Notes: a model not told the origin generated them from the letters alone. Shown: positions 3 to 40,595, counted from the first letter of the stretch. The stretch is 64,000 nt of DNA from an uncultured Desulfarculales bacterium (GCA_964569795.1 CAZMVB010000005.1:107092-171091), one strand, 5' to 3'. A program made the numbers and translations.

Positions 3-296
3 CTGGCCGGGCCGATGGCGACCGGTCCGGCCGTTGTCAAGGCGGCGGCCGCGACGGACAATGGCGTCCGGGTTTGCCGGCTTGTCTGCCGGCCCATATG
101 TCACTGGGTCGTAATGCAGCGGCGCTGCCGACCGGGGATGCTCTGCCGCTTCAAGAGCCACGTCTTTTGCCGTTGTTATGTTCGGCCCAGGGGTTGCGCC
201 AAGCGATGCCGGTCAAGGCCCGTTGTCGCGCGCTGTTCCCGGGTGGGCTGGTGCCGGGTCAGGGTCAGGTTCTGCCGGTGCGGGTATCCCCGGTGA
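3..296 (+). CDS. Cys/Arg-rich small protein, 5' end cut by window edge (possible family member CARP-F)
   Basis: The ORF is open to the window start. About 75 aa contain 13 Cys and many Arg. Motifs RVCR.VCR and ICHWV resemble the paralogs at 9995-16779. Third codon positions are GC-rich and a hairpin terminator lies 50 nt downstream. It could still be a spurious high-GC ORF. Confidence 0.4.
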   Translation: MAGPMATGPAVVKAAAATDNGVRVCRLVCRPICHWVVMQRRCRPGMLCRFKSHVFCRCYVRPRGCAKRCRSRPVVARCSRVGWCRVRVRFCRCGYPR

Positions 297-455: not shown

Positions 456-869
456 TCAGTTGACAAAGGTATTCTTGACCCGGGTCGATTTCACGAAATA
501 ACCGATCCACAGACAGCTCAAGACCAAATTCACGATCTCGCCACCCTGCACCCGCTGGACCATGATGATCGTGATGATGTTGATCACGATCCCGATGGCC
601 AGCAGGACGACGATCAGCTTCGGCGCCCATTTCTTCTTGAGGAAGATGACGATCAGTTCCAGCACGATCAGGGCCAGGCCGATGATCATCAAGACCGTCA
701 GGGTGGAAATGAACTTGGCCAACTCCGGCGCCCGTTGGCCCAGGGCGCCAATTCCGACCAGAATGACAATCGAAAAGATCAATCCGACAAAGGCCAGGAT
801 GACGTAAACCAGTAACCAGCCGCCGATGCCCTTCAGTTCCCTGGTCTCCGGCGCCGCCTGCTCGTTCAT
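456..869 (-). CDS. Small 4-helix membrane protein, DUF2569/YdgK-like
   Basis: 137 aa with a G-rich SD 5 nt before the ATG and four hydrophobic helices. The GIGGWLL motif and the C-terminal YF.KS.RV.NTFV are shared with the paralog at 13510-13959. The family name is from memory and unverified. Confidence 0.75.
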   Translation of the reverse strand: MNEQAAPETRELKGIGGWLLVYVILAFVGLIFSIVILVGIGALGQRAPELAKFISTLTVLMIIGLALIVLELIVIFLKKKWAPKLIVVLLAIGIVINIITIIMVQRVQGGEIVNLVLSCLWIGYFVKSTRVKNTFVN

Positions 870-9937: not shown

Positions 9938-9969
9938 CCCAAAAAAGGGCCGGGGCAGAACCCCGGCCC
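9938..9969 (-). terminator. Rho-independent terminator after CARP-A
   Basis: Minus strand reads GGGCCGGGG-TTCTG-CCCCGGCCC followed by TTTTTTGGGTTT, about 25 nt after the stop at 9995. Confidence 0.75.
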
Positions 9970-9994
9970 TCACCGGCCCCCGCGGAGCGAAAGC

Positions 9995-10366
9995 TCAGCC
10001 CCGGATGACGCAGACCACGACAGTGCAGCGCAAATGGTACCGGCAAGCCCGCCTCGTTACCCATTGGCAAATTTTGTGCGTCACCCACTGGCAGATGGAC
10101 TGACATCTTCTGCGGATCATGTTGCCCACCCGGCTGTGCCAGCATTTTTGCAGCGGGTGGCAAATTCGCTGCACCTTGCAGACTTGCCTCGAGACCGGGC
10201 CGCAGGTCTTTACGTAGTTGCATTTCCGGCACGGAACCGTCTTGGCGATTTGGAACGTGACCCGGGACCGGACGGCAACCGCCGGGGTCGCCTTGTTACC
10301 GGCCGCCGCCGGGCCAACCAAAGCGACCAGCAGAACCAGGACTGCCATTGACCAGAGAACCTTCAT
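9995..10366 (-). CDS. Secreted Cys/Arg-rich mini-protein CARP-A (long type, 12 Cys)
   Basis: SD GAGGAGG and signal peptide MKVLWSMAVLVLLVALVGPAAA. The Cys spacing is shared with CARP-B and CARP-E. Internal ICQWVT(H/R)(K/R).C duplication. C-terminal VIRG. Confidence 0.8.
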   Translation of the reverse strand: MKVLWSMAVLVLLVALVGPAAAGNKATPAVAVRSRVTFQIAKTVPCRKCNYVKTCGPVSRQVCKVQRICHPLQKCWHSRVGNMIRRRCQSICQWVTHKICQWVTRRACRYHLRCTVVVCVIRG

Positions 10367-10423
10367 GCTGTTTCCTCCTCGTGACCTTTTCGCCGGACCG
10401 GCCCCCGATCCAACGAGAGTTTT

Positions 10424-10535
10424 TAGGCGTCACCGGGGACACGGTCCCGCGGTGACGACGAAGTTGATTTTCCTGACCGGTCGCCGGGGGGAGTAGAAGC
10501 CGCGTCCTCTTCCCGGGGACCGGTCTGACCGCCTG
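10424..10535 (-). pseudogene. Duplicated 3' end fragment of the 11976-12440 gene
   Basis: About 100 nt are nearly identical to 11968-12075. It encodes GFYSPRRPVRKINFVVTAGPCPR versus GFYSPWQPVRKINFVVTAGPCSR. There is no signal peptide or homologous upstream part. Confidence 0.6.
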
Positions 10536-10645
10536 GTGCGGGCGTTGTCTGTTCGGGCCCATTGGCTGGCCGTATGAGGTTCCACGGTCAGTCGTTTTTC
10601 ACGGCCATCACACTGGGCGATCATTCGAACCTTCGGCGCCCCCGT

Positions 10646-11914
10646 TCACCGGGGCGGGGGAAAGATGATCGGTCCGGACGGGAAGAAGACGTGCTGCAGG
10701 CGTCCCCCGCGGAAAAAGGCGATGATATGTTTCTTCAGATAAAAAAGAGAGTGCACCGTCCCTCTCCGGAACTTTTGGGTAATGACCTTGTCCGGCGAAC
10801 CGAAGATGCGTTCGAACTCGGCCCTGGTCAGGGACCCCGGTCGCTCGAAGTCGATCACCACCCCCGTAACCATGGCCGGTGGCCTGAAGTCGGCCGAACA
10901 AAACCTTATCTTGAATTTTTGGGGGTCGATCTTCAGGCCGGGGAACAGGTAGGGCAGCAGGGGGTCCAGGCCACGATGGCAAGGCTCATTGAAGAGCAGG
11001 CCGATCTCGCCGGGAAAGGTCTTCTTCAAATCCCAGGCGTGACCGTCCGCGATGGAATACGTCATTTGCCGGCGGATGGCCTCGATCAGGAAGTCGTTCT
11101 CCGGCCGCCAGGCCACGCCCTGGGCCTCGGCCGCCCGGCGCAGCTTGGCATAGAGATCCGGCCGCTTGGCCAGACGCCGGACCAGGGACCAGGGCACGAT
11201 CCAGCCGCAGGAGAAACTTTTTTCATCCCGAGGCCGGGGGCCGACCCGACCATGGCTGGGGCCGGAGTGGATGATCACCCGGACGACTTGTCCCTGATTG
11301 ACCCAGCAAATCATGTTGCGCCAGACGTACCACTTGACCTCGGACGGCAGTTTGAGGGCGTTCCCCGGGGGCAGCTTGACGTTCAGGACCAGGTCCGGTT
11401 TGCCCAGGGCGGCGGTGAATTTTTGAAGGCTCGCGTCCGCGGCCAGCGGGGCCGACGGGGTCCCACCCTGGATCATGACCTTGATCACCGTGCCGCCTCT
11501 GACGAATAAATCGGCCTTCAACCGCTTGTAGTCCACGTTTTTGATCTTCAAGAAGTTGAAGAACTGCCCCAGATATTGCCGGGCCCTGGCCGGCCCCATC
11601 TTCCTGGTGTTCAGATGCTTGAATATCGGTCCAAAATAGTGGGCGTAAATGACCAGATCGGCCTCGGTCAGGTTATGCTTTTTCAGGAAGGCCTCGATCT
11701 TGGCCCTGATTTCGACCGGATCGCCGAAGCCCAGGGCCGCGATCTGGTCCAACCTGTCGAAGGGCCGGCCCACGGTCAGGCCGTGGAAGGTGAAGGGCCA
11801 GACCACGTAGCGGAAGCCGCGCGGGTCGGTCACGATCCGACCGGGCTTTGCGTCCGCACGGCCGTACCCGGCCAGAAACACCAGGGCCAGCACGACAACG
11901 ATTGTCCTTTTCAT
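10646..11914 (-). CDS. Secreted hypothetical protein (422 aa)
   Basis: Start set at ATG 11914 with signal peptide MKRTIVVVLALVFLAGYGRADA. No family recognised. The long N-terminal extension in the track was rejected. Confidence 0.75.
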   Translation of the reverse strand: MKRTIVVVLALVFLAGYGRADAKPGRIVTDPRGFRYVVWPFTFHGLTVGRPFDRLDQIAALGFGDPVEIRAKIEAFLKKHNLTEADLVIYAHYFGPIFKHLNTRKMGPARARQYLGQFFNFLKIKNVDYKRLKADLFVRGGTVIKVMIQGGTPSAPLAADASLQKFTAALGKPDLVLNVKLPPGNALKLPSEVKWYVWRNMICWVNQGQVVRVIIHSGPSHGRVGPRPRDEKSFSCGWIVPWSLVRRLAKRPDLYAKLRRAAEAQGVAWRPENDFLIEAIRRQMTYSIADGHAWDLKKTFPGEIGLLFNEPCHRGLDPLLPYLFPGLKIDPQKFKIRFCSADFRPPAMVTGVVIDFERPGSLTRAEFERIFGSPDKVITQKFRRGTVHSLFYLKKHIIAFFRGGRLQHVFFPSGPIIFPPPR

Positions 11915-11975
11915 GAAACTCTCCCCCAGCTGACCATTCAAGGCCGGGCCTTGAACCGGCGAGCCTCTTTCGGCA

Positions 11976-12440
11976 TCACCGGGAACACGGTCCGGCGGTG
12001 ACGACGAAGTTGATTTTCCTGACCGGTTGCCAGGGGGAGTAGAAGCCGCGTCCACTCCCCGGGACCGGCTGACCATTGGCGTCGAACCTGATACCGCCGG
12101 TGAAATAGCGCCGCTGGATCTCCACCACTGCCATACCGGGCCGCAGGGCCTTGATCTCGGCGACATAGGCCATGGAGTGGATGAAGTTTCTCCCTACGGT
12201 TAAACTGTTTCCCCTGGTGACCACGGCCCGGTAAAACGGACCGTTCTGGCTGCCCACGGCACCCAGGCGCAGGTTGAATTTTTGGCCGACCCGCAGGCAC
12301 CGGGACGAGGTCGTCACCTTGACCGCTGGGGGCCTGACCGTTGCGGCCCGGGAGACGCCGCCGGCCGGAAACACACCGCCCAGGCTTCCGGCCAGGCAGA
12401 CCACCATCAAGGCCTTGAAACCACTTTTCCTCAGACACAT
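11976..12440 (-). CDS. Secreted hypothetical protein (154 aa)
   Basis: Start set at ATG 12440 (MCLRKSGFKALMVVCLAGSLG) with an AAGGA SD. Its C-terminal tail is duplicated at 10424-10535. Confidence 0.7.
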   Translation of the reverse strand: MCLRKSGFKALMVVCLAGSLGGVFPAGGVSRAATVRPPAVKVTTSSRCLRVGQKFNLRLGAVGSQNGPFYRAVVTRGNSLTVGRNFIHSMAYVAEIKALRPGMAVVEIQRRYFTGGIRFDANGQPVPGSGRGFYSPWQPVRKINFVVTAGPCSR

Positions 12441-12513
12441 GGGTAGATTCCTTTTATCACGGGCCCGGCCATGGCCCCCCAGCCAGGCCGCTTCTTCTCT
12501 TCTCCGGGGGACC

Positions 12514-12831
12514 TCACCGCTCGACTCGACCGCACCTGTAACACGAACCTTGATCGGTGCTGTAACAGCGACCATTGCAATACCACGCCTTGTCGCTCGG
12601 ACAGCAAGCCCTGTATTTCCAGCAGCAGTCATCGCCTGACGGGCAGCAGAAGCTCCCGCAATTGACCGGATAGTTGGCCGGACACCTCCGTCTGGCCAAT
12701 TGAACGGTTGTTCTCGTTTCCCGTTTGCAGCGCTGAACCGCTGTATGCCCTGCGCCCAGGGCCATGGTCGGCGCCAGGCAAATCGCCAGCAAGAACACCA
12801 CGATCAAGACGCTGATTCCTCCCCTTCTCAT
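12514..12831 (-). CDS. Secreted Cys-rich mini-protein with CC doublets (distinct from the CARP family)
   Basis: SD AAGGAGG 7 nt before ATG 12831 and signal peptide MRRGGISVLIVVFLLAICLAPTMALG. The mature part contains C-x7-C-x3-CC-x5-CC-x5-CC-x7-C-x3-C-x7-C-x2-C. Confidence 0.75.
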   Translation of the reverse strand: MRRGGISVLIVVFLLAICLAPTMALGAGHTAVQRCKRETRTTVQLARRRCPANYPVNCGSFCCPSGDDCCWKYRACCPSDKAWYCNGRCYSTDQGSCYRCGRVER

Positions 12832-13078
12832 GACGTGTCCTCCTTGACCCCCTGTTACTTCCATGGATGTTTCCCGCTCACGCTTCCGCCGGATTGGCTG
12901 GCCGGATTCGCCCTGGTCCGGCCTCTTCAGTTCGATTGGGTTCTCCTGGGTCCATGGCGTATCCTCCGTTTCCTTGGGGAAGCTGGATAAGTTGTCTCCC
13001 CAGTCGTTTTAGTGTTCCCCCGGCCGCGGCCGCGCCCTTGCGGCGGACATCATCGGGCCAGGGTGATCACCCCCGGCC

Positions 13079-13438
13079 TCAGTCTCGCACCGCACATATC
13101 GCCGCGACATGGACCTGCCGGCACCGAATCCGGTTGACCAGGCGGCAGTACTGGCGGGTCAGCCACCGGCAGATCCGGCGGCACTGCTCGACGATGCGGT
13201 TGCCGATCCGCGACCGGGTGCAGACGTGGGTCGGCTGGCAATAGCGCTGGGCTTGGCAGACCCGCATGGGCGCTTTTCGGCAGACCCGCACGGTCTTGTA
13301 ACACGTCTTGGCCAGCCTTTGCGCCGGCCGGGGCGGCGCGGCCGAGGCCGTCAGGGGCACGATCGTCAACCCCATGGCGACCAGGGCGATCAACATCCAG
13401 CCGAAGCAGATACCCAACTTGACACGACTTGAATACAT
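13079..13438 (-). CDS. Secreted Cys/Arg-rich mini-protein CARP-B (long type, 10 Cys)
   Basis: SD AAGGAGGAGG. Leader MYSSRVKLGICFGWMLIALVAMGLTIVPLTASA. By manual count the mature 86 aa hold 18 Arg, 3 Lys and 10 Cys with only 2 acidic residues. Core motifs are shared with A and E. Confidence 0.85.
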   Translation of the reverse strand: MYSSRVKLGICFGWMLIALVAMGLTIVPLTASAAPPRPAQRLAKTCYKTVRVCRKAPMRVCQAQRYCQPTHVCTRSRIGNRIVEQCRRICRWLTRQYCRLVNRIRCRQVHVAAICAVRD

Positions 13439-13509
13439 TTGATCCTCCTCCTTCTTGGGTCACGGACGGTCGATAACCGCGGCCGCCTCGGTGACCCCGA
13501 TCGGATGCC

Positions 13510-13959
13510 CTAGCGCACGAAGGTGTTGGCCACCCGTTTTGATTTCTTGAAGTACAAGATCCACAGCACCGACGCCACCATCCCGATGAAGTATAAGGGC
13601 AGGCCCCCCCGCGGCCCGACCCAAATAAGCAGGACCACCAAAGTAAGCCCGTACAAGATCAAATTCAGTCCCAGGCAGACGACAATGGTCCGAGGTCCCT
13701 TCACCCGGCGTCGATAGAGCGCCCACAAGACAACCAGGCTCAAGGCCAGATCCCAAATATAGCTCGCGAATATGATTACAATCAGGGTCTGGAGGACCCC
13801 ACTAGCCACCGCGACCATGTACGGGACGGCCTCGACGATATCCACCAAGGCAAACAGCACTGTTATGATCGTGTAAAATAATAGCCAACCGCCGAACCCG
13901 GACAACTCGTTTTCCCTGCCACGGCTGCTGGTTTGGGACATGACGATCTGATTATCCAT
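13510..13959 (-). CDS. Small 4-helix membrane protein, DUF2569/YdgK-like (paralog of 456-869)
   Basis: Start set at ATG 13959 (MDNQIVMSQ). The FGGWLLFY motif and the C-terminal YFKKSKRVANTFVR match the 456-869 protein. Confidence 0.8.
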   Translation of the reverse strand: MDNQIVMSQTSSRGRENELSGFGGWLLFYTIITVLFALVDIVEAVPYMVAVASGVLQTLIVIIFASYIWDLALSLVVLWALYRRRVKGPRTIVVCLGLNLILYGLTLVVLLIWVGPRGGLPLYFIGMVASVLWILYFKKSKRVANTFVR

Positions 13960-14077
13960 GGTTGCTCCCTTTGACAGGTTCACCGGACCGCCTGGGTAAA
14001 AACGGGAATACGTTTGTGGCGCCCTCTCGAGAGGCCGTCCGGGCCGCCCCGGCCACCTCTCTGGGCGGGATCGAGCC

Positions 14078-14371
14078 TCAACCTCGGATGGCGTTGCAGG
14101 AGGTCTCGCAACGCGTCTCCCTACGGTAAAAACGCCGCCGAACCCACCGGCAGACATGAGTTCCATTCAACCACTGGCACACCTTTTGAAGCACGGTGTG
14201 GGGCACCCGAACCGTTCTGCACACTCGATGGCACACCCTCTTGGCCAGCATCGTCCCCCCGTTGTTCCTCGCCGCCGAGGCCACCAGGGGCACGAACATC
14301 AGCCCCAGGGCGATCAGGGCGATCAAGACCCAGCCCATGCCGGCTCCCCACTTGACAGACTTGCCAGACAT
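14078..14371 (-). CDS. Secreted Cys/Arg-rich mini-protein CARP-C (short type, 6 Cys)
   Basis: Start at the second ATG (MSGKSVKWG), preceded by GGGAGGGG. The leader is nearly identical to B and D. Cys pattern C-x3-C-x13-C-x8-C-x13-C-x3-C. C-terminal AIRG. Confidence 0.8.
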   Translation of the reverse strand: MSGKSVKWGAGMGWVLIALIALGLMFVPLVASAARNNGGTMLAKRVCHRVCRTVRVPHTVLQKVCQWLNGTHVCRWVRRRFYRRETRCETSCNAIRG

Positions 14372-14489
14372 TTTCCCCTCCCACATCTTCGGTCATCGAA
14401 CTCGGTCATGACGGGCGCGGCCGGGCCGCCCCGGCCGCATCGCGTTGTCCACCCAGGCATCCGCCGCCTTTCAGAGGCGAGGTACGGCC

Positions 14490-14831
14490 TCAACCTCGGA
14501 CGGCAAGGGCGCAGGTTACATGGCACCTTCTCTCAATCCGGTACTCAACTATGGCCCTCAAGTGGCATAGTTGGCGTTTATACCAATCGCACACCCTTTG
14601 GAAAACGGTATGGGGCACCCGAACCCTCCGGCACACTGTATGGCACACTCGTTCGTAATGCCGTTTGGCCAGCATCGTCACACCGGTGTTCGCCGCCACC
14701 GCGTGGATCCCGGGATGATCGGGGACACCTTTCGCCGAGGCTGCCAAGGGCACGAACATCAGCCCCATGGCCACCAGGGCGATCAAGATCCAGCCGAAGC
14801 CGTTTCCCCACTTGACACGCTTGTCAGACAT
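14490..14831 (-). CDS. Secreted Cys/Arg-rich mini-protein CARP-D (short type, 6 Cys)
   Basis: Leader MSDKRVKWGNGFGWILIALVAMGLMFVPLAASA. Cys pattern C-x3-C-x13-C-x7-C-x13-C-x3-C. C-terminal AVRG. Tandem paralog of CARP-C. Confidence 0.8.
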   Translation of the reverse strand: MSDKRVKWGNGFGWILIALVAMGLMFVPLAASAKGVPDHPGIHAVAANTGVTMLAKRHYERVCHTVCRRVRVPHTVFQRVCDWYKRQLCHLRAIVEYRIERRCHVTCALAVRG

Positions 14832-14925
14832 TTTCTACTCCCATGTCTTCAATTAAAGAGCTTGGTTAAATAAGACCTCCCTCAGGGGCGGGTTGGCCGA
14901 TGTTAATGATCCGGACCTGAACCTC

Positions 14926-16170
14926 TCACCCCGCCGGGTTGACCACCCGTCCCATGAACAGGATCGTTCCGGTCCGGGTGTCCATCACCACGAACAGGAA
15001 GGGATGATCGGCCCGGAACACCGGCGGGCCGGACGGCGATCTCGTGGCGATGACCACGGCCGTGGCCGCGGCGGCCACGGTCCCGGCCTCGTTGACCTCG
15101 ATGAAGGCCTTGTGAAACACGCCGCTGATGTGCAAGTTCTTCTTTCTCCCGTCCATGCGAGAGAAATCGGCCTTGTCACCCTTGAAGGCGTCCTTGATCC
15201 CCAGGGCCTTGAGCGATTTTTTGAGGCTGATGGTCGGCGTGGTGACCTTGAACCGGGGCAGTGAGACCTGGACCACCCTCCCGGGGCGCACTGACGACAG
15301 CCACTTTTTCAGGTTGGCCGGGGTGAGGGCCCGTTCCAGGCCGGCCAGGCCGCCGGCCCGCTTGGGCAGCAGCACGAACATGGACAGGGACCGGTCGGCG
15401 TAAGGCATCTCCAGGACCTTGAGGGAGCCCAGATCGGCGTAACCGAACGGCTTGATGCCCCGACCGTTGGTCTGGGACATCATCTTGACCCGGACCTTTT
15501 TGTGGGGAGCGATGAAAAAGTCGGCCTCATGGGTCTTGGCCTTGTCGAACTTGAGCCGCCAGGTGCCCTTGAAGTACACGGCGTTGGTCAGCACCAGCGT
15601 GGTCAGGTTGGTGATCGACCCCGGTGGCAACAGGTCCTTGACCCTGTCCCGGGTCTTCTTGGCCGCCCAGGCGTTTATATTGCGACGCGAGGCCTCGGGC
15701 TGTGCTGCATAGTTCTGGGGAAACAGGGCGTTGCCATAGTTAACCTTGATCCTCTGCAAAAAGGATTTGAGAAAGGGATAGCCCTTCTGGGGAAACAGGG
15801 CGTTGGCGGTCAGCAGCACGGCGCCATTCCGGCCGGAGCGTTCCAGGCGCCGGATCAACCGGCCCAGGCGGAGGTGCCACGCGGCCTCGGGGCCCCTCAG
15901 GCCCAGGGCCGCGGCCATTTGACGCTGCGTCTCGTGGGCCGCCCCGGCCAGGGTCATGGACAGGGCCACGGTGATGCTGTAGGGCGAAAACACGATGTTG
16001 GCCGGGCCTTTGCGGAAGTCCTTGAGCCTGGTCAACTGGCCGTAGAGTTTGAGGGCAAAGGCGGTGTCCTTGCCGACCATGCGGCGCGGGATCGGGGCCA
16101 CGGCCGCGGCCGTGGACAGACCCAGGGTCAGGCTCACCAGGACAACGATCAGCAGTCGAACCGGTCTCAT
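14926..16170 (-). CDS. Secreted serpin (serine protease inhibitor), inhibitory-type hinge, predicted P1 Arg
   Basis: Signal peptide MRPVRLLIVVLVSLTLGLSTAAA. Serpin body and C-terminus FRADHPFLFVVMDTRTGTILFMGRVVNP. Reactive-centre loop EAGTVAAAATAVVIATR-S. Confidence 0.9.
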   Translation of the reverse strand: MRPVRLLIVVLVSLTLGLSTAAAVAPIPRRMVGKDTAFALKLYGQLTRLKDFRKGPANIVFSPYSITVALSMTLAGAAHETQRQMAAALGLRGPEAAWHLRLGRLIRRLERSGRNGAVLLTANALFPQKGYPFLKSFLQRIKVNYGNALFPQNYAAQPEASRRNINAWAAKKTRDRVKDLLPPGSITNLTTLVLTNAVYFKGTWRLKFDKAKTHEADFFIAPHKKVRVKMMSQTNGRGIKPFGYADLGSLKVLEMPYADRSLSMFVLLPKRAGGLAGLERALTPANLKKWLSSVRPGRVVQVSLPRFKVTTPTISLKKSLKALGIKDAFKGDKADFSRMDGRKKNLHISGVFHKAFIEVNEAGTVAAAATAVVIATRSPSGPPVFRADHPFLFVVMDTRTGTILFMGRVVNPAG

Positions 16171-16329
16171 GATTTCCCCCTGAAAAGAAGTTCCGGCCAT
16201 CGGCCCCAATGCCCTTTTGGCATCAGGATGAAATGGTTAGACCGAATCCGTGCCGTTCCGGTTCCCCTTTTTTTCCACCGGGCCGGATGAATGCGCTCGA
16301 TAATGAATGCCCCCCTGCCCCTGATGGCC

Positions 16330-16359
16330 AATAAAAAAGGCCGGGGGATTCCCCCGGCC
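16330..16359 (-). terminator. Rho-independent terminator after CARP-E
   Basis: Minus strand reads GGCCGGGGG-AAT-CCCCCGGCC followed by TTTTTTATT, about 30 nt after the stop at 16390. Confidence 0.8.
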
Positions 16360-16389
16360 CTGATCGGCGCTGCTCCAGTCGGTCGATAA

Positions 16390-16779
16390 TCAGCCCCGCA
16401 CGGCGACGCAGACCGTCTGGCACCTGGGCTGCAGTCGGCACTGCAGGCGGTAGATGAACCGGCAGATTCGCCGGGTGAGCCACTGGCAAACAGACTGGCA
16501 GCGTTGGACGATCTGATTGCCCACCCGGGACCTGGTGCACAGGCGCCGGGGCTGGCAGTAGCGCTGAAGCTGGCAGACCCGACTGGGGACCCGGCGGCAG
16601 ACCCTGACGTTGGTGCACCGCCGGAAGCATTTCCTCTTCTGCTGGGCCAGCCGCGCCGGCTCCACCCTGGCCCGGACTGAACCAGTCTCGGCCGGGTCCA
16701 TTCGCCCCTGGGCCATTGCCCCGGGACTGACCACCATGGCAGCCAGCATCAGGACCATCACCATGTAACTGACCTTCAT
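16390..16779 (-). CDS. Secreted Cys/Arg-rich mini-protein CARP-E (long type, 12 Cys)
   Basis: Signal peptide MKVSYMVMVLMLAAMVVSPGAMA. Same Cys spacing and QRYCQP / TRSRVGN / CQWLTR motifs as CARP-B. C-terminal AVRG. It has its own terminator. Confidence 0.85.
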   Translation of the reverse strand: MKVSYMVMVLMLAAMVVSPGAMAQGRMDPAETGSVRARVEPARLAQQKRKCFRRCTNVRVCRRVPSRVCQLQRYCQPRRLCTRSRVGNQIVQRCQSVCQWLTRRICRFIYRLQCRLQPRCQTVCVAVRG

Positions 16780-30461: not shown

Positions 30462-30584
30462 ATGAAATCCTATCGCAAAGAGCGATGGTTCGAGGTGCCG
30501 AGCCGGCGGGCCTTCATCCACATCACCCCGCAGGTCGAGGAGTGCCTCCGGGAGAGCGGGATCAAGGAGGGCCTGTGCCTGGTC
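30462..30584 (+). pseudogene. yjbQ: yjbQ (UPF0047) 5' part, 41 codons, cut by element insertion
   Basis: [41 protein letters not shown], then 7 element-derived codons and a stop. The continuation [10 protein letters not shown]... lies at 37774. Confidence 0.8.
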
Positions 30585-32244
30585 AAGACGAAGCATATGG
30601 AGTTTTGACCTCCACTCCGACTCCCTTTCCAACAATCTTACCGGCCTTCGCCGCCGCCTTGGTATCCCCGTCAAGAGGACGTTCCGCCGCAGCATAGACG
30701 TCCCCCGACCGAGCCTGTAAATGGCCCCATATGGTCCCCAGGCGGCCGTAGGCCTCGAACTCGTATCGGTGTGGGTTCCCTCCCAGGAACTTGATGTAAA
30801 CGCCGAACCGGCGGCCACCCGGGCCTGTCCCACCAAACACCAGGTTGACCAGGTCCTGTAGTTCGTCGTCGGGCATGTCATTGAAGGCGACCCCCGAGGA
30901 AATGTAACTCTCGACTATCCGCCGTACCAGTTGGGCGTCTTGGCTGTTCCGTTTGGCTTCGATTTCGGACTCCCGAGGCAGTGCCAATAACTGCTCGTCG
31001 ATGGCAGTCAACTCCTTCTTGTGGTTGGCCAACCGAGATTCAAGCTTCTTGAGGTTTCGCTGGGCCTGATCGTCGGTGACAATTCCCTTCCCGATGGCAG
31101 CCACGATTCGGTCCATTTCTGTTTGGACCTGTCGGACCTCTTTGAAGTGGAACGCCCTCTTGTCCAGGAGTTCCTTGACCACCTTTTCACTCGACTCGTG
31201 GCCCTCGAACACCGCGGCACGGAAGTCACCCTGGTTCGACAACATCACGGCCAGTTCATCCAAGACGGCCCGCTCCAAAACCTCGGCGTTGATACTGTAC
31301 TTGTAGCCGTCGCCGGAGTGTGGCCGGTAATACCTAAGGCCCCCTCGGTTTGCCGTCCCGGTCAAGGCCTTGCCCGTGTCGGTGTCGAAAATCTTGCGGC
31401 CCAATAAGTACCGGTGCTTGATATGCCCCCTGGCGTAGGTCTTCCGGGCCTTGGCCCTATCCTTGATGGCCTGGATTGTCTCCTCAGGCAGGAGTGGAGG
31501 CACAGGAGTCGGGACGGTCTCGTCGATCCTCGCCCACTCCAACCTGAACCTCTGATCCCAAGTGGCCCCGGCGGTCTTGGTTAACACCCGCCAAAGGTAC
31601 TGCCCGTTCATGCCGAACTTTCGTCCGAGTTCGTTGAATCCGGCGTTGGTCTCCAGGTACTCCCTGGCTATGGCCTCTATCTTGGCCTTGGCCTCGGGGT
31701 CAACCTGCCAGCCGTCCTCCTGGGACCAGGTCCGGCCATAGGGCCTCTTGCCACAACTGGGCCTCCCCTGCCTGGCACTTTCGATTTTGCCCAAAACCGA
31801 TTTGTAGGCCTGCTGGCCGGCAAAGAGCTCCCCGGCCTCGACACTCATCCCCAACACGAAAAAGGGCTCGGGATTGGTCAGCTCGTACTCCATCGGTCCG
31901 ACAAAAAACCTGACCCCCTTCATCCGAAGTGCCTTCAGGTTACCCTTGTTCTTCTCGTTGTCCCGGCTCCACCGACTAATGTCCGCCACGATCACGGCGT
32001 CAACCCGGCCATCCAGAGCATCGGTCATCAGTCGGTCAAGCTCGGCCCTTTCCCAGTTGGCGGTGGCGTGTTCCTGCCCGCCGTACCAGTCGACCACCTG
32101 CCCCCCGAGCCGGTCTATTGTCTGCTTGAGGTACCTCCGTTGGGTCTCCAGGCTTGTCCCCCGGTCAGCCTGTGCCTCGGTGCTGACCCGGATCAGGGGG
32201 GCGAACTTGATCGGCTGTTCTACCACGGCCTCGCCCTTTTTCAT
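30583..32244 (-). CDS. Large serine recombinase
   Basis: 553 aa. N-terminal resolvase domain with the catalytic Ser context LIRVSTEAQ, then a recombinase domain and a coiled-coil C-terminal part. Its stop codon sits at the attL core. Confidence 0.9.
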
Positions 32245-37773: not shown

Positions 37774-38070
37774 AACGCCATGCACATTACGGCATCGGTA
37801 TTCATCAACGACGACGAGTCGGGCCTGCATCACGACTACGAGAAGTGGCTCGAAGGCCTGGCCCCTCACGCCCCGGTGAGCCAGTACCAGCACAACCGGA
37901 CCGGCGAGGACAACGCCGACGCCCATCTCAAGCGGCAAGTGATGGGCCGGGAGGTGGTGGTGGCCGTGACCGACGGCCGCCTGGACTTCGGCACCTGGGA
38001 GCAAATCTTCTACGGCGAGTTCGACGGCCGCCGCCGCAAGCGGGTCCTGGTCAAGATCATCGGGGAGTAA
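37774..38070 (+). pseudogene. yjbQ: yjbQ (UPF0047) 3' part, 98 codons
   Basis: [17 protein letters not shown]...[53 protein letters not shown] aligns with the C-terminal two thirds of E. coli YjbQ (from memory). It is preceded by 8 element-derived codons starting at ATG 37750. Confidence 0.8.
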
Positions 38071-38091
38071 CGATCCTTTGGGGGGGACGCA

Positions 38092-38949
38092 ATGGAGTTA
38101 GTTAAGCCCGAACGCATTTGGGTAAAAGACCACCCTTCCCTTAACGAAAAGTGGGTCCAGTCTATAATCGAGGACGACCCTTCAATCCTTGGCTTGGGTG
38201 AGCTTGATTTCAGGGACAAAGAACGCCGTCATCCTCGGGCTGGCCGGCTGGACTTGTTATTGGAAGACTCTGAGGCCAATCGCCGATATGAAGTTGAAAT
38301 TCAACTTGGGGCAACGAATGAAAGTCACATAATTCGAACTATAGAGTATTGGGACATCGAACGTAAAAGGTATCCACAATATGACCACTGCGCAGTCATT
38401 GTAGCCGAAGACATTACTAGCCGGTTCTTGAACGTAATTGGTCTGTTTAACGGATTCATTCCAATCGTTGCCATTCAATTTCAAGCTATGATGTTCAATG
38501 ACAAAATTGCCCTGATTTTTACAACAGTCTTAGACGAAATGACTTTGGGTGAAGATGAAGGAAACGGACCTCTGCCGAGAGTCGACAGGGGTTATTGGGA
38601 AACAAAACGGGGCACCAAAGAAACCGTTGCGCTAGCTGACGGAATTCTTGATTTAATCCATTCATTTTCTCCCGAATACGAACTAAATTATAACAAATAC
38701 TACATAGGACTTGTAAAGCAGGGGCAACCAAACAACTTTGTAATTGTCAAGCCAAAGAAAAAATATGCAGTAGTCGAAATTAAACTGGCCAAGACAGATG
38801 AAGTTAATGGCCAGTTGGAAGACAGTGATCTGGACGTGATCGATCATCATAAAAGTGGGAGATGGAGAATCAGGCTGAAAAAGAAAGATATTCTCGCAAA
38901 CAAGGAGTTGTTAACTGAATTGTTAAAAAAAGCCTCCAATGAATTTTGA
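38092..38949 (+). CDS. NucS/DUF91-like PD-(D/E)xK fold protein (hypothetical), AT-rich
   Basis: 285 aa. GRLDLLLEDSEANRRYEVEIQLG resembles a D...E.(K/Q) nuclease core. The IIRTIEYWDIERKRYPQYDH block is known to me from widespread uncharacterised homologs. Confidence 0.65.
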   Translation: MELVKPERIWVKDHPSLNEKWVQSIIEDDPSILGLGELDFRDKERRHPRAGRLDLLLEDSEANRRYEVEIQLGATNESHIIRTIEYWDIERKRYPQYDHCAVIVAEDITSRFLNVIGLFNGFIPIVAIQFQAMMFNDKIALIFTTVLDEMTLGEDEGNGPLPRVDRGYWETKRGTKETVALADGILDLIHSFSPEYELNYNKYYIGLVKQGQPNNFVIVKPKKKYAVVEIKLAKTDEVNGQLEDSDLDVIDHHKSGRWRIRLKKKDILANKELLTELLKKASNEF

Positions 38950-39131
38950 TAATAGAAACTGGACCGGGGCTAATGGGCGTTGTATTGTCGAGAGCGTAAA
39001 ATCAAGTTATATCGTCATAAGGCCAGACATTAACTTTCCATAAAAAGTTATGATTCCACAAAAGCCCCACCATCATCCATCACGGAAGGCGAAAAGTCAA
39101 TAGGGGGTATCGAGGCGGTTGGGATTTCTCC

Positions 39132-40421
39132 TCATGGTTTAGCCCTGGATAACAGTTCATGTATGTGCCTACTAGATATCGCAAAGTTTAAATTCTGACC
39201 TGTCTTAATTGACAATGTTACTATACCAATAACCTTACCCCCATAATTCAATAATGGGCTCCCGCTTGACCCTTGCGATATGGGGGCCGTGAACTGAATG
39301 AGATATCCATATTTTTTAACCTTTCTAACTCCGGAAACAATTCCATTTGATACTGTATGATATAATAATCCTAAAGGGCTTCCTATAACCACAATAGGTT
39401 CTCCCACTTGAGGTAGTCTATTTGATAATCTTAGATGATGGAATATGTAGCCTTTATGCCCAAGATGCAGGATTGCTATATCATGTGGTATAGAAAATGC
39501 GACTACCCTGGATATTTTAAATAATTTTCCATTATAGTCACGGATAAATAGCGAAGTCGCTTTCGCTATAACATGATAGTTTGTCACTATTAATTGCTTT
39601 CCTTTAATAAAAAATCCGCTGCCTGCCTTTCTGCGTCTTGATTTAAAGACCGCGTACACTGTGACTATGGACCGTTGCACCTTTTTGATCAAATTTGGGA
39701 GTGACCTTGTGGTATCGCTTGACCCCACATCACGGCGATTATAACTAGACCTACTTTTAAGATATAGCCTGGGTTTGTACCGTTTCCACCTCTGGCCCGT
39801 GGTCACTGCAGTCACGAATTTGGCAAAATGTATGCCAGTAACTTTTTTCAAGTCGGCGAAAAAATGAGCCTCCACCACCACAATTCGTTTCCTGAGATAA
39901 CTACGCACTTTTTCAGGCATACAATTAATCAACATTTCTGCAAATCTAATGTACCGCAGACTCCTCCAAAATAAACCTGTAGCTTGTCTATATTTCTTCT
40001 CTTTAAAATTTCTCGCTCCATATTTAAACATTACCTGTGCGAGTCTAACCATGTCTCCAATAAAACTATCATAAACTATTGTAAACCTTTTTACCTGCTT
40101 TGGCCCCGCAATATTTTCTGCCTTTATTAAAAGGGCTAAGCTGCTCTTCAGTCGCCGATAGCTTGCTTTGGGATGCCCATTCCAATAAAGTATTTGGCCT
40201 TTCCTGAATTCTTGTCGAGCCTTTTTAACCAACTTGATAGCGGAATCGGGTCTAGAGGTGGATGCAAAAGAAATGGCAGGCATTGAAAATGTAAATAGTA
40301 ATATTACTAACAAGTTTGCAAGAAACCATATGTATGGGGACTCCCGAAACTGCAAATTTTCAACTGATTTCTTCTGACGTTCAGGTGCTTGAATCGGAAC
40401 CAAATAGCGGAAGAACTTCAC
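39132..40421 (-). CDS. Trypsin-like serine protease (S1C-like) with an N-terminal membrane anchor and helical region, AT-rich
   Basis: Catalytic triad contexts TNYHVI, DIAILHL and GSSGSPLL. Hydrophobic helix IWFLANLLVILLFTF. Confidence 0.8.
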   Translation of the reverse strand: MKFFRYLVPIQAPERQKKSVENLQFRESPYIWFLANLLVILLFTFSMPAISFASTSRPDSAIKLVKKARQEFRKGQILYWNGHPKASYRRLKSSLALLIKAENIAGPKQVKRFTIVYDSFIGDMVRLAQVMFKYGARNFKEKKYRQATGLFWRSLRYIRFAEMLINCMPEKVRSYLRKRIVVVEAHFFADLKKVTGIHFAKFVTAVTTGQRWKRYKPRLYLKSRSSYNRRDVGSSDTTRSLPNLIKKVQRSIVTVYAVFKSRRRKAGSGFFIKGKQLIVTNYHVIAKATSLFIRDYNGKLFKISRVVAFSIPHDIAILHLGHKGYIFHHLRLSNRLPQVGEPIVVIGSPLGLLYHTVSNGIVSGVRKVKKYGYLIQFTAPISQGSSGSPLLNYGGKVIGIVTLSIKTGQNLNFAISSRHIHELLSRAKP

Positions 40422-40595
40422 AAGGCCCCCCTGTATCGATCTTTATAGTATAACTCAAACTGGCCGAATTAGGAAGCCTGGCCGTGCGTGGTTTACAAGC
40501 GGCTGATCAATAATAACTTTTCCGTAGAAGTTAAGAATTTATATTGGATATTCACGAACTTGCGATTGAAAAGCTGGACTAGCCCCTCACCCCTT

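What the first reader, a model, noticed from the sequence alone, without database searches (positions are those of the whole stretch)
9995..16779. Paralogous family of secreted, hyper-cationic, cysteine-patterned mini-proteins (CARP-A to E) filling one minus-strand gene run
Five minus-strand ORFs are involved: 9995-10366, 13079-13438, 14078-14371, 14490-14831 and 16390-16779. Most have a good SD (GAGGAGG, AAGGAGGAGG, GGGAGGGG; weak for CARP-E). Each has an N-terminal hydrophobic signal-like segment ending in small residues (ASA, AAA or AMA). The mature part is about 55-100 aa with roughly 1 residue in 4 Arg/Lys and 1 in 8 Cys, and almost no acidic residues. CARP-B mature has 18 R, 3 K, 10 C, 1 D and 1 E in 86 aa by manual count. 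All five end in (V/I)R(G/D)-stop. The three long members keep identical Cys spacing over the core, C-x7-C-x5-C-x5-C-x12-C-x3-C-x7-C-x7-C, with invariant QR(Y/I)C(Q/H)P, SR(V/I)GN and C(Q/R)W(L/V)T. The two short members keep C-x3-C-x13-C-x7/8-C-x13-C-x3-C. Cys counts are even (6, 6, 10, 12, 12), which fits fully disulfide-bonded extracytoplasmic folds. I do not recognise a named family. Inference: these could be defensin-like cationic antimicrobial or competition factors. They could instead be polyanion (eDNA, EPS, polyphosphate) or metal-binding periplasmic/extracellular proteins. The whole run from the serpin gene (start 16170) down to CARP-A (stop 9995) has only short gaps and one strong terminator at its end, so it may be one operon. 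CARP-E is monocistronic with its own terminator.
Basis: partly seen in the sequence, partly recalled or inferred. Interest (0 to 1): 0.88.

Follow-up and report, generated by a model that had tools for sequence, protein, structure and literature searches.

The report
Orphan cationic cysteine-rich exported mini-proteins
Five neighbouring genes in an uncultured sulfate-reducer-type (Desulfobacterota) genome encode a real, previously undescribed family of small, exported, very positively charged, cysteine-patterned proteins; only two other examples turned up among 15 billion public proteins, and their function, possibly antimicrobial or protective, is still only a guess.

Summary
The five minus-strand ORFs exist, are paralogous and are read in the claimed frames. 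Each has a Sec-type signal sequence and a Cys-patterned mature part with net charge +10 to +23.

The family matches no Pfam, NCBIfam, PADLOC, PHROGs or PDB sequence. An exhaustive HMMER scan of 1.84 billion representatives and two word-indexed searches found only the five proteins and two metagenomic homologues, P0007 and P0008. Both keep all 12 Cys. P0008 is the CARP-E orthologue from Mai Po wetland sediment, with core dN/dS of 0.28.

In that relative the single CARP gene sits directly upstream of the carboxyltransferase gene. The ~6.4 kb between CARP-E and that gene here (serpin to CARP-A) is therefore a lineage-specific expansion, flanked by CARP-plus-terminator repeats.

The structure is unresolved (AlphaFold pLDDT 54-58, helical). 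Cys spacing is mirror-symmetric, which suggests a disulfide-laddered hairpin around an amphipathic Arg/Trp helix.

Function is inferred only. My best guess (0.35) is exported polycationic, envelope- or polyanion-targeting competition factors, with an Arg-P1 serpin and a DUF2569 membrane protein as accessory genes. Rivals are protease inhibitors, matrix binders and thiol/metal binders. This is a new family within a known general kind.

The parts
16390..16779 (-). CARP-E. Long form, 129 aa, 12 Cys in the mature part, net charge +23. It is the ancestral-position copy, with orthologue P0008 in L083.
16337..16361 (-). Intrinsic terminator after CARP-E: 11-bp GC stem followed by a U-tract. 81% identical to the terminator after CARP-A.
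   Evidence: D8; z -2.45
14926..16170 (-). Exported serpin, 414 aa with a signal peptide. Inhibitory-type hinge, with reactive bond inferred as Arg-Ser (AVVIATR|S).
   Evidence: (PF00079, 1.6e-110). The P1 assignment comes from P17-Glu counting and resemblance to antithrombin's AVVIAGR|S, which is my own knowledge.
14490..14831 (-). CARP-D. Short form, 113 aa, 6 Cys with spacing 3-13-7-13-3.
14078..14371 (-). CARP-C. Short form, 97 aa, 6 Cys with spacing 3-13-8-13-3.
13510..13959 (-). DUF2569 inner-membrane protein, 149 aa, lying between CARP-C and CARP-B. Candidate accessory or immunity protein (inference only).
   Evidence: (PF10754, 1e-09)
13079..13438 (-). CARP-B. Long-type core with 10 Cys (lacks C2 and C11), joined to a C/D-type signal peptide and RBS, so it is a mosaic.
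   Evidence: (D1)
12514..12831 (-). Unrelated second Cys-rich exported ORF, 105 aa, 13 Cys after the signal, with three CC doublets. No family match.
11976..12440 (-). 154-aa exported protein of unknown function. Its 3' end is duplicated upstream of CARP-A.
   Evidence: (D2)
10646..11914 (-). 422-aa exported protein of unknown function. It has only two homologues in public data, neither next to a CARP.
10398..10517 (-). Pseudogene fragment, 86% identical to 11944-12063 (the 3' end of the 154-aa gene plus 32 nt downstream). A scar of segmental duplication just upstream of CARP-A.
   Evidence: D2
9995..10366 (-). CARP-A. Long form, 123 aa, 12 Cys, net charge +21, no acidic residue in the mature part. 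Contains an internal 8-residue tandem repeat, ICQWVTHK / ICQWVTRR.
9945..9971 (-). Intrinsic terminator after CARP-A: 12-bp stem followed by a U-tract. Homologous to the terminator downstream of P0008 in L083.
   Evidence: z -2.19
3..296 (+). Possibly related in theme, but homology is not shown. Partial ORF cut by the window start, ending in a 13-Cys, 20-Arg, 80-aa segment. It is the only open frame with high GC3 (0.79).
   Evidence: SW z is at most 2.3 against the CARPs.
456..869 (-). Second DUF2569 membrane-protein gene, 31% identical to 13510-13959, convergent with the ORF at 3-296.

Best explanation
Shown:
- CARP-A to CARP-E are genuine genes of a new, lineage-restricted protein family.
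- Each precursor has a Sec-type signal sequence and, in A, D and E, a poorly conserved linker that holds all or most of the few acidic residues (B and C have only a 10-12-residue linker without them).
- The linker is followed by a conserved, hyper-cationic core of 57-82 residues with 6, 10 or 12 Cys.
- The genes multiplied locally by tandem duplication and recombination.

Inferred:
- After export the Cys pair into disulfides. These staple an antiparallel hairpin-like scaffold around a long amphipathic Arg/Trp-rich helix (SRVGN...CQWLTRRICRF).
- The resulting protease-resistant polycation acts on polyanionic targets of other cells, such as membranes, LPS or nucleic acids. It would be a bacteriocin- or defensin-like competition or defence factor in anoxic sediment communities.
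- The co-encoded exported serpin (P1 Arg) would shield these Arg-rich proteins from trypsin-like proteases, or gate removal of the linker.
- The DUF2569 membrane protein would serve as a self-protection or handling partner.
For: Real and coding:
- GC3 is 0.70-0.86 in the claimed frames.
- Differences are enriched at third codon positions.
- The orthologue pair E/P0008 has 80% core identity and core dN/dS 0.28, against 0.87 for the N-terminal signal-plus-linker part and 1.0 for the linker alone.
- All 12 Cys, QRYCQP, RVGNQI and CQWL are kept in P0007 and P0008 from two other metagenomes.

New family:
- Nothing in Pfam, NCBIfam, PADLOC, PHROGs or PDB.
- Only 7 sequences in total across the searches.

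Exported and disulfide-bonded:
- The N-termini have n-h-c regions ending ASA, AAA or AMA.
- Cys counts are even in all seven members. An even number of conserved Cys in exported proteins is the usual indicator of disulfides (PMC3870256).
- Cys distances from the central 12-residue loop are 6/4, 12/12, 20/20, 26/26 and 30/30. Permutation p is 0.03 to 0.0007.
- CARP-B has lost C2 and C11 together.

Membrane or polyanion activity:
- Net charge is +10 to +23 and pI is 10-11.5.
- An alpha-helical hydrophobic moment of 0.55-0.85 recurs in the same segment of all long members.
- Trp and two Arg are invariant.

Conflict-gene style evolution:
- Local amplification, with a mosaic 5' region (dS 0.1-0.36) against an older mature part (dS 0.6-1.2).
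- Fast-evolving cores in some pairs: A/P0007 has 36% core identity and omega 0.72.
- Patchy occurrence. The related organism in L083 has one copy where this genome has an island.

Context:
- Every gene in the island encodes an exported or membrane protein.
- The serpin has an inhibitory hinge and Arg at P1.
- Two DUF2569 genes each lie next to Cys/Arg-rich ORFs.
Against: - There are no functional data of any kind.
- Omega is below 1 everywhere it is measurable, so diversifying selection is not shown.
- Both AlphaFold models are low confidence (pLDDT 54 and 58). Foldseek finds nothing. The fold and disulfide map are therefore conjecture.
- The short forms keep a different subset of Cys (C5, C6, C8, C9, C11, C12 by local alignment) than a simple ladder predicts, so they would need re-pairing.
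- In a diderm bacterium Sec reaches only the periplasm, and no outer-membrane export system is encoded nearby.
- Sulfidic sediments are unfavourable for extracellular disulfides. The organism's Dsb/VKOR capacity was not examined.
- The most conserved element is a loop Arg (SRVGN). That fits a binding or inhibitory loop at least as well as a membrane-lytic role.
- The role assigned to DUF2569 is pure guilt by association, based on 2 cases.
Confidence: 0.35

Rival explanations
1. CARPs are canonical (Laskowski-type) disulfide-rich inhibitors of trypsin-like serine proteases. The invariant Arg of the disulfide-bounded C6-C7 loop (C-x3-R-V-[GP]-[NH]) would be P1. Together with the Arg-P1 serpin they would form an exported anti-protease island that protects the envelope or periplasm, as ecotin does in E. 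coli.
For: - An invariant Arg lies in the best-conserved loop between two invariant Cys.
- E and B read C-T-R-S at the loop start, like the Bowman-Birk CT(K/R)S reactive site (the comparison is from my own knowledge).
- The adjacent serpin has P1 = Arg.
- Plant alpha-hairpinins with a twin CX3C motif include potent trypsin inhibitors that use an Arg in the inter-helix loop (PMC7191063).
- The short CARPs carry an outer twin CX3C.
Against: - No sequence match to any inhibitor family in Pfam or PDB.
- A net charge of +20 is not needed for inhibition.
- Reactive-site loops are usually the most variable part of inhibitor paralogues, whereas here the loop is the most conserved part.
- CTRS itself is not conserved: CTSS in P0008, CSQY in P0007, CWHS in A.
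Confidence: 0.15
2. CARPs are self-directed polyanion binders. As structural polycations they would condense or cross-link the producer's own extracellular DNA, acidic exopolysaccharide, polyphosphate or negatively charged mineral surfaces in the periplasm or biofilm matrix.
For: - Extreme positive charge with almost no acidic residues in the core.
- Arg is strongly preferred over Lys (12-24 R against 2-7 K in the window members, 17-21 R against 1-2 K in P0007/P0008), as in nucleic-acid binders.
- Several paralogues could be co-expressed as bulk components.
- All neighbouring genes encode exported proteins.
Against: - Matrix components are usually widespread within a clade. This family is absent from all 185,579 species-representative genomes scanned by pattern. 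It is also absent from the nearest Desulfobacterota MAG loci.
- A precisely conserved 12-Cys framework and an amphipathic Trp-bearing helix are more than charge-based binding requires.
Confidence: 0.2
3. The Cys are not disulfide-bonded. They would act as thiolates that bind soft metals, metal-sulfide clusters or sulfur species in the anoxic, sulfidic periplasm.
For: - The habitat is anoxic sediment. P0008 comes from Mai Po wetland sediment.
- The organism is a Desulfobacterota relative.
- Mature proteins are 7-12% Cys.
- Neighbouring Arg could lower thiol pKa (inference).
Against: - No CxC, CxxC or CxxCH motifs appear anywhere in the cores.
- The proteins are rich in aromatic and aliphatic residues, unlike metallothioneins.
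- Strictly even Cys counts, and loss of Cys in pairs (B: C2 and C11), point to disulfides.
- A +20 protein repels metal cations.
Confidence: 0.08
4. The ORFs are compositional artefacts of GC-rich DNA: spurious Arg/Cys-rich reading frames, or the shadow of genes on the other strand.
For: Arg/Cys-rich, acid-poor ORFs are common in GC-rich DNA, at 2.5% of ORFs of 80-200 aa. Long antisense ORFs overlap every CARP.
Against: - GC3 favours the CARP frames.
- Differences are enriched at third codon positions, and core dN/dS is 0.28.
- Cys columns are conserved across three organisms.
- Signal peptides, Shine-Dalgarno sites and terminators are in place.
Confidence: 0.02

Closest known systems
Plant alpha-hairpinins (EcAMP1, MBP-1, VhTI, BWI-2c, Luffin P1)
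   Same: - Cationic, disulfide-stapled peptides with a mirrored C-x3-C ... C-x3-C motif. In alpha-hairpinins the pairs are outer-outer and inner-inner on an antiparallel helix-loop-helix.
- Their activities span antimicrobial action, DNA binding and Arg-P1 trypsin inhibition (PMC7191063).
- The short CARPs have an outer twin CX3C (3-13-7/8-13-3). The low-confidence model places the two CX3C motifs on the first and last helices.
   Different: - No sequence homology was detected.
- CARPs are bacterial and Sec-exported. They are not cut from vicilin-type precursors.
- They are 2-3 times longer (64-106 aa mature) and have 6-12 Cys rather than 4.
- The long forms mirror around a 12-residue loop with spacings of 3-5-7.
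- The helical hairpin is not established.
Cationic disulfide-rich antimicrobial peptides of bacteria (bacterial cis-defensins such as actifensins, actinomycesin and xanthusin; laterosporulin)
   Same: Small, cationic, ribosomally made proteins with an even Cys count, produced by bacteria and thought to act in competition (PMC11561630, PMC8819291 and PMC6989792, listed).
   Different: - cis-Defensins are about 35-50 aa, with 6-8 Cys and the CS-alpha-beta signature (C-x3-C in the helix plus C-x-C in a strand).
- CARPs have no C-x-C at all, are much larger and give no profile match.
- Known bacterial defensins come mainly from Actinomycetota and Myxococcota, not Desulfobacterota.
Cationic dual-function antiproteases (SLPI and elafin WAP domains; BPTI/Kunitz; Bowman-Birk inhibitors)
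   Same: Small, basic, multi-disulfide, exported proteins. Some are both protease inhibitors and antimicrobials, with a P1 Arg/Lys in a disulfide-framed loop. Here an Arg-P1 serpin is encoded alongside.
   Different: No match to the WAP, Kunitz or Bowman-Birk models. The Cys frameworks differ. The putative reactive loop is conserved rather than variable.
Twin-CX3C / CX9C helical hairpin proteins (small Tims, CHCH domain)
   Same: Mirror-image Cys spacing on two antiparallel segments, giving a disulfide ladder.
   Different: Those are eukaryotic mitochondrial intermembrane-space proteins with 4 Cys, and they are neither cationic nor secreted effectors. The resemblance is geometric only, recalled from knowledge and not tested.

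Membership tests
alpha-hairpinin | Cys motif Xn-C-X3-C-Xn-C-X3-C-Xn with exactly four Cys | tested here: not met
   Short CARPs have an outer C-x3-C ... C-x3-C but carry two extra Cys between them. Long CARPs have 10-12 Cys. The motif definition is from PMC7191063.
alpha-hairpinin | Helix-loop-helix fold with C1-C4 and C2-C3 disulfides | tested here: inconclusive
   The AlphaFold models are all-helical but have pLDDT 54 and 58. Foldseek against PDB gives no significant match. The disulfide map is not obtainable in silico.
cis-defensin (CS-alpha-beta) | C-x3-C in the helix paired with C-x-C in the C-terminal strand; 6-8 Cys in about 35-50 aa | tested here: not met
   No C-x-C spacing occurs in any of the seven members, and mature length is 64-107 aa. 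No defensin model in Pfam matches at E <= 1.
Bowman-Birk / Kunitz / WAP / Kazal protease inhibitors | Match to the family profile and its Cys framework | tested here: not met
   There are no Pfam or PDB sequence hits. The only NCBIfam 'protease inhibitor' hit scores 16 bits against a cut-off of 197.
Metallothionein / metal-binding Cys clusters | C-x-C, C-x-x-C or CC clusters, with few aromatic residues | tested here: not met
   The smallest spacing in the family is x2 (once, in A) and otherwise at least x3. Trp, Tyr and Phe are present.
c-type cytochrome | CxxCH haem-binding motif | tested here: not met
   No CxxCH is present in any member.
RiPP precursors with radical-SAM maturation (SCIFF, sacti- and ranthipeptides) | Cytoplasmic leader peptide and an adjacent maturase gene | tested here: not met
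   The N-termini are Sec-type signals. No radical-SAM or other maturase domain is present in the island or its flanks.
Sec-dependent bacteriocin with immunity gene | Signal peptide, a small cationic mature product and an adjacent membrane immunity protein | tested here: inconclusive
   The signal peptide and cationic product are present. A DUF2569 membrane protein is adjacent, and a second one lies next to another Cys/Arg-rich ORF. DUF2569 has no known immunity role.
Sec-dependent bacteriocin with immunity gene | Demonstrated killing activity | not testable with these tools
   This needs expression and bioassay.
Anti-phage defence systems | Match to a PADLOC model | tested here: not met
   All 10 island proteins give 0 families.
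Serpin (neighbour gene 14926-16170) | Serpin fold profile and an inhibitory hinge with small residues at P15-P9 | tested here: met
   PF00079 matches at 1.6e-110. The best PDB serpin hit is 2.9e-80. The hinge reads EAGTVAAAATAVVIATR|S.

The most novel reading that the evidence does not exclude
CARPs would define a new fold: an exported, six-disulfide, mirror-symmetric hairpin ladder carrying about +20 charge. Together with an Arg-P1 serpin and DUF2569 membrane proteins they would form a previously unrecognised toxin / protector / immunity module. Anaerobic sediment Desulfobacterota would use it for interbacterial or anti-predator warfare, and DUF2569 would gain its first function, as the immunity or handling partner.
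Probability: 0.2. Interest if true: 0.7.

Novelty: new variant of a known kind. Interest (0 to 1): 0.5.

Why it matters
If the proteins are active polycations, they would be the first disulfide-rich, defensin-scale effectors described from Desulfobacterota. Their Cys framework and probable fold are unrelated to any known antimicrobial or inhibitor scaffold, which makes them potentially useful as hyper-stable peptide templates.

The locus also offers a testable first function for DUF2569 (YdgK-like) membrane proteins. It offers a rationale for exported bacterial serpins as well: protecting the cell's own Arg-rich effectors, or controlling their maturation.

The limits are real. The family is confined to a handful of uncultured sediment organisms, with seven sequences in 15 billion. 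Nothing is known experimentally. It touches no long-standing open question.

Tried and rejected
Family and homologue searches:
- Profile searches of the five proteins and four neighbours against Pfam and NCBIfam gave no CARP family; all ten island proteins against PADLOC and nine of them against PHROGs gave nothing either. Only the serpin and DUF2569 were recognised.
- A PDB sequence profile search gave one chance hit at E = 1.4.
- The word-indexed search of 5.8 billion clusters found only the five proteins themselves at first. It found P0008 once P0007 was added to the query.
- Pattern scans of species-representative genomes, JGI metagenome contigs and IMG/VR found no relatives. My own degenerate DNA pattern should match P0007's gene, so that metagenome is evidently not in the scanned collection.
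- tblastn against the plasmid and phage collections gave no match.

Synteny:
- The adjacent carboxyltransferase gene retrieved 80 loci, the nearest being Desulfobacterota MAGs at 72-77% identity.
- None holds a CARP, the serpin, DUF2569, or the 422-, 154- or 105-aa proteins.
- The 422-aa neighbour has two homologues, and neither contig holds a CARP gene.

Structure:
- Two AlphaFold runs on 7-sequence alignments gave low confidence.
- Foldseek against PDB gave nothing usable, and I draw no fold assignment from it.
- I first considered a pure beta-hairpin ladder, because all arm steps between Cys are even. I dropped it as the sole model after the hydrophobic-moment analysis showed a strong alpha-periodic segment.

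RNA elements:
- Rfam on the island gave only sub-threshold hits on the terminators.
- GC-rich hairpins after CARP-B, C and D are no more stable than shuffles, so I do not call them terminators.

Other leads:
- The ORF at 3-296 was tested as a sixth CARP. Similarity is not significant (z at most 2.3), so it is not counted as a member.
- Literature searches for the sample identifiers, DUF2569 and bacterial Cys/Arg-rich exported proteins gave only the Mai Po origin of one metagenome and general background.

Full report
**1.

ORF listing shows all five minus-strand ORFs at the coordinates given.
- They align with one another, with invariant Cys, Trp and Arg columns.
- With signal peptides removed, the short cores (C, D) still score far above composition-preserving shuffles against the long cores. 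Smith-Waterman z is 10.7 for C against E and 8.5 for D against E, and 14-23 among the long forms. The short and long forms are therefore truly homologous.
CARP-B mature has 18 R, 3 K, 10 C, 1 D and 1 E in 86 aa. Mature Cys counts are 12, 10, 6, 6 and 12.
- The long forms share 7-5-5-12-3-7-7. The short forms are 3-13-8-13-3 and 3-13-7-13-3.
- Net charge is +10 to +23.
- The Shine-Dalgarno strings and the (V/I)R(G/D) C-termini can be read directly.

**2. The frames are coding, and composition alone would not have shown it**

- GC at the third codon position is 0.70-0.86 in the claimed frames and 0.48-0.63 in the competing ORFs, including 10034-10351 and 13109-13432. Confident genes of the window have 0.85-0.9.
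- Between CARP-E and its orthologue, differences fall 9, 11 and 20 on codon positions 1, 2 and 3. Between B and E they fall 15, 15 and 27.
- As a control I counted Arg/Cys-rich, acid-poor ORFs of 80-200 aa in 1.4 Mb of comparable GC-rich DNA. They are common, at 83 of 3,270. The striking composition is therefore not evidence by itself.
- Only the CARPs and their orthologues combine it with a strongly hydrophobic N-terminal segment.

**3. How rare the family is**

- Pfam, NCBIfam, PADLOC, PHROGs and PDB sequences give nothing above threshold.
- The word-indexed search of 5.8 billion clusters returned only the five proteins themselves. They come from one 184,808-bp NCBI contig and one SRA run.
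- The exhaustive HMMER scan of 1.84 billion representatives added one protein, P0007 (125 aa, JGI metagenome 3300057049).
- A second indexed search that included P0007 added P0008 (132 aa, JGI 3300010413). PMC6461988 identifies that metagenome as Mai Po wetland sediment.
- Both keep all twelve Cys with identical spacing (3-5-7-5-5-12-3-7-7-5-3). Both keep QRYCQP, RVGNQI and CQWL, and end in RG.
- Pattern scans of 185,579 species-representative genomes, JGI metagenome contigs, IMG/VR, plasmids and phages found no more.
All three failed to materialise.

**4. Organism and locus history**

The adjacent carboxyltransferase is 72-77% identical to proteins of Desulfobacteraceae / Thermodesulfobacteriota MAGs. 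None of those loci has a CARP or shares the island.

The short contig L083 is more telling.
- P0008 is the orthologue of CARP-E, with 83% nucleotide identity over the core. It is followed by a terminator and then directly by the carboxyltransferase gene. That stretch matches window 9969-9777 at 78%.
- In the window, CARP-E and the carboxyltransferase gene are separated by about 6.4 kb. This block holds the serpin, CARP-D, CARP-C, DUF2569, CARP-B, a second Cys-rich ORF, the 154-aa and 422-aa exported proteins and CARP-A.
- CARP-A carries a terminator 81% identical to that of CARP-E (D8).
- The island is therefore a lineage-specific expansion bracketed by CARP-plus-terminator repeats.

Further scars of local rearrangement:
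- A 120-nt fragment of the 154-aa gene lies just upstream of CARP-A (86% identity, D2).
- B, C and D share a 134-nt block of RBS plus signal peptide, 70-81% identical to the CARP-C copy (D1). Its synonymous divergence (0.1-0.36) is far below that of the mature parts (0.6-1.2).
- CARP-B is thus a long-type core joined to a C/D-type 5' end.

**5. Selection**

- For the E/P0008 orthologue pair, the Cys core has 80% identity and dN/dS 0.28. The N-terminal signal-plus-linker part has dN/dS 0.87, and the linker between signal and core taken alone has 1.0.
- Paralogue cores give 0.28-0.72.
- A/P0007 is the fastest pair, with 36% core identity although its signal peptides are 68% identical.
- This shows purifying selection on the scaffold with rapid turnover of the residues between Cys. 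Positive selection is not demonstrated.

**6. Anatomy of the protein**

- The N-termini have a basic n-region, a 15-20-residue hydrophobic h-region, and ASA, AAA or AMA before the predicted cut. This is by inspection only, as no trained predictor was available.
- The linker that follows is variable. In A, D, E, P0007 and P0008 it carries all or most of the few acidic residues; in B and C it is only 10-12 residues long and has none. It ends in a basic site (LAK[RT], QQKR[KR]) just before the first Cys.
- In the core, an alpha-helical hydrophobic moment of 0.55-0.85 recurs over SRVGN...CQWLTRRICRF in every long member. The last ~20 residues show beta-type periodicity in E, P0008, B and D.
- CARP-A has an internal 8-residue tandem repeat (ICQWVTHK / ICQWVTRR).
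- Cys positions are mirror-symmetric about the 12-residue C6-C7 loop. Outward distances are 6, 12, 20, 26 and 30 on one arm and 4, 12, 20, 26 and 30 on the other.
- Four of five exact matches occur in 3% of permutations of the same intervals, and in 0.07% under a uniform null.
- CARP-B has lost exactly C2 and C11, the partners predicted by an antiparallel ladder.
- The short forms are perfectly palindromic, but around a different loop (C8-C9 by homology). Pairing must differ between the two subfamilies.
- AlphaFold on the 7-sequence alignments predicts helices only, with pLDDT 54 and 58. Foldseek finds nothing. I treat the fold as unresolved.

**7. Context**

- Every gene of the island encodes an exported or membrane protein.
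- The serpin is a standard inhibitory serpin (PF00079, 1.6e-110).
- Its hinge and reactive loop read EAGTVAAAATAVVIATR|S. Counting from the P17 Glu gives P1 = Arg and P1' = Ser, close to antithrombin's AVVIAGR|S. The counting and comparison are from my own knowledge; the sequence is. It should therefore target trypsin-like proteases, the enzymes most dangerous to Arg-rich proteins.
- The DUF2569 membrane protein sits between CARP-C and CARP-B.
- At the window's start a second DUF2569 gene (456-869, 31% identical) lies convergent with a partial ORF (3-296). That ORF is the only open frame there with high GC3 (0.79). It ends in an 80-aa segment with 13 Cys and 20 Arg, and is not significantly similar to the CARPs.
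- Two DUF2569 genes, each beside a Cys/Arg-rich small ORF, are a lead and not proof. The literature holds no function for DUF2569.
- The run from serpin to CARP-A has gaps of 61-279 nt and no U-tract terminator inside it. The GC hairpins after B, C and D are no more stable than shuffles. One operon is plausible but unproven.

**8. Interpretation**

I regard the following as shown:
- This is a new, real, exported, Cys-scaffolded, hyper-cationic protein family.
- It was amplified locally.
- It is almost unique to a few uncultured sediment Desulfobacterota.

The rest is inference. My preferred reading (0.35) is a disulfide-stapled polycation that acts on anionic envelopes or polymers of other cells. 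The serpin would act as protector or maturation gate, and DUF2569 as the handling or immunity partner.
- For it: the charge, the amphipathic Arg/Trp helix, the anionic linker, the conserved-signal and variable-core pattern, the tandem amplification and the patchy distribution.
- Against it: there is no outer-membrane export route nearby, the habitat is sulfidic, omega is below 1, and the most conserved element is a loop Arg.

That loop Arg, together with the Arg-P1 serpin and the alpha-hairpinin precedent (PMC7191063), keeps a protease-inhibitor reading alive (0.15). Self-directed polyanion or matrix binding (0.2) and thiol or metal chemistry (0.08) are the other options. An artefact is effectively excluded (0.02).

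**9. Comparison with known families**

- The nearest analogues are plant alpha-hairpinins (mirrored CX3C motifs, cationic, antimicrobial or trypsin-inhibiting).
- Bacterial cis-defensins and the cationic antiproteases SLPI and elafin are the next closest.
- CARPs fail the defining motifs of each. They have more than four Cys, no C-x-C, and no profile match.
- They are therefore not members of any of these. At most they work like them.
- I rate this as a new variant of a known general kind (disulfide-rich cationic exported mini-proteins), built on an unrelated and unclassified scaffold.
- Interest is moderate at 0.5. The family is clearly new and has a testable locus model. It is also narrowly distributed, has no known function and bears on no standing question.

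Noticed in passing
window 3-296 (+): Partial ORF cut by the window start. Its visible end (TDNGVRVCRLVCRPICHWV...CRCGYPR) has 13 Cys and 20 Arg in 80 aa and is preceded by ...AVVKAAAA, which looks like the end of a signal peptide. It is the only open frame there with high GC3 (0.79). It is not significantly similar to the CARPs (z at most 2.3). A hairpin with a T-run follows at about 349-378.
   Followed up: partly
window 456-869 (-): Second DUF2569 membrane-protein gene (PF10754, 8.3e-10), 31% identical to the one inside the CARP island. It is convergent with the Cys/Arg-rich ORF at 3-296. Both DUF2569 genes of the window therefore lie next to Cys/Arg-rich small ORFs.
   Followed up: partly
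window 12514-12831 (-): Unrelated Cys-rich exported ORF of 105 aa inside the island. It has 13 Cys after the signal and three CC doublets (CGSFCCPSGDDCCWKYRACCPSD, loosely granulin-like by eye). It has no Pfam, NCBIfam or PDB match.
   Followed up: partly
window 10398-10517 vs 11944-12063: A 120-nt duplicate at 86% identity. It covers the 3' end of the 154-aa gene plus 32 nt downstream and reappears as a dead fragment just upstream of CARP-A. It is a scar of segmental duplication.
   Followed up: yes
window 13340-13473, 14273-14406, 14733-14866: The RBS plus signal-peptide regions of CARP-B and CARP-D are 70% and 81% identical to the reference copy at CARP-C, with much lower synonymous divergence than the mature parts. 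This indicates gene conversion or a mosaic origin, and CARP-B is a chimera of a C/D-type 5' end and a long-type core.
   Followed up: yes
window 14926-16170 (-): Exported bacterial serpin whose reactive loop AVVIATR|S closely resembles antithrombin's AVVIAGR|S. P1 Arg is inferred.
   Followed up: partly
window 30583-32244 (-) and 38000-40500: A serine recombinase (Resolvase domain) lies upstream of a low-GC stretch (0.40-0.44). That stretch holds a DUF5655 protein (38092-38949) and a 429-aa trypsin-like peptidase (39132-40421). It is probably a mobile or foreign segment.
   Followed up: no
L084 9159-9794 (+): In the metagenome contig that carries the homologue of the 422-aa protein, the upstream gene encodes an exported protein with Met/Gly/Tyr-rich repeats (MMPGWSGYHMGPG) and an Arg-rich tail. 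It is reminiscent of Spy/ZraP-type periplasmic stress proteins. No CARP is on that contig.
   Followed up: no
window 16764 vs 16779 (CARP-E start): NCBI calls CARP-E from the second ATG (124 aa, P0003) and Logan from the first (129 aa, P0006). The MKV... start is shared with CARP-A and P0007, which favours the longer form despite its weak Shine-Dalgarno site.
   Followed up: partly
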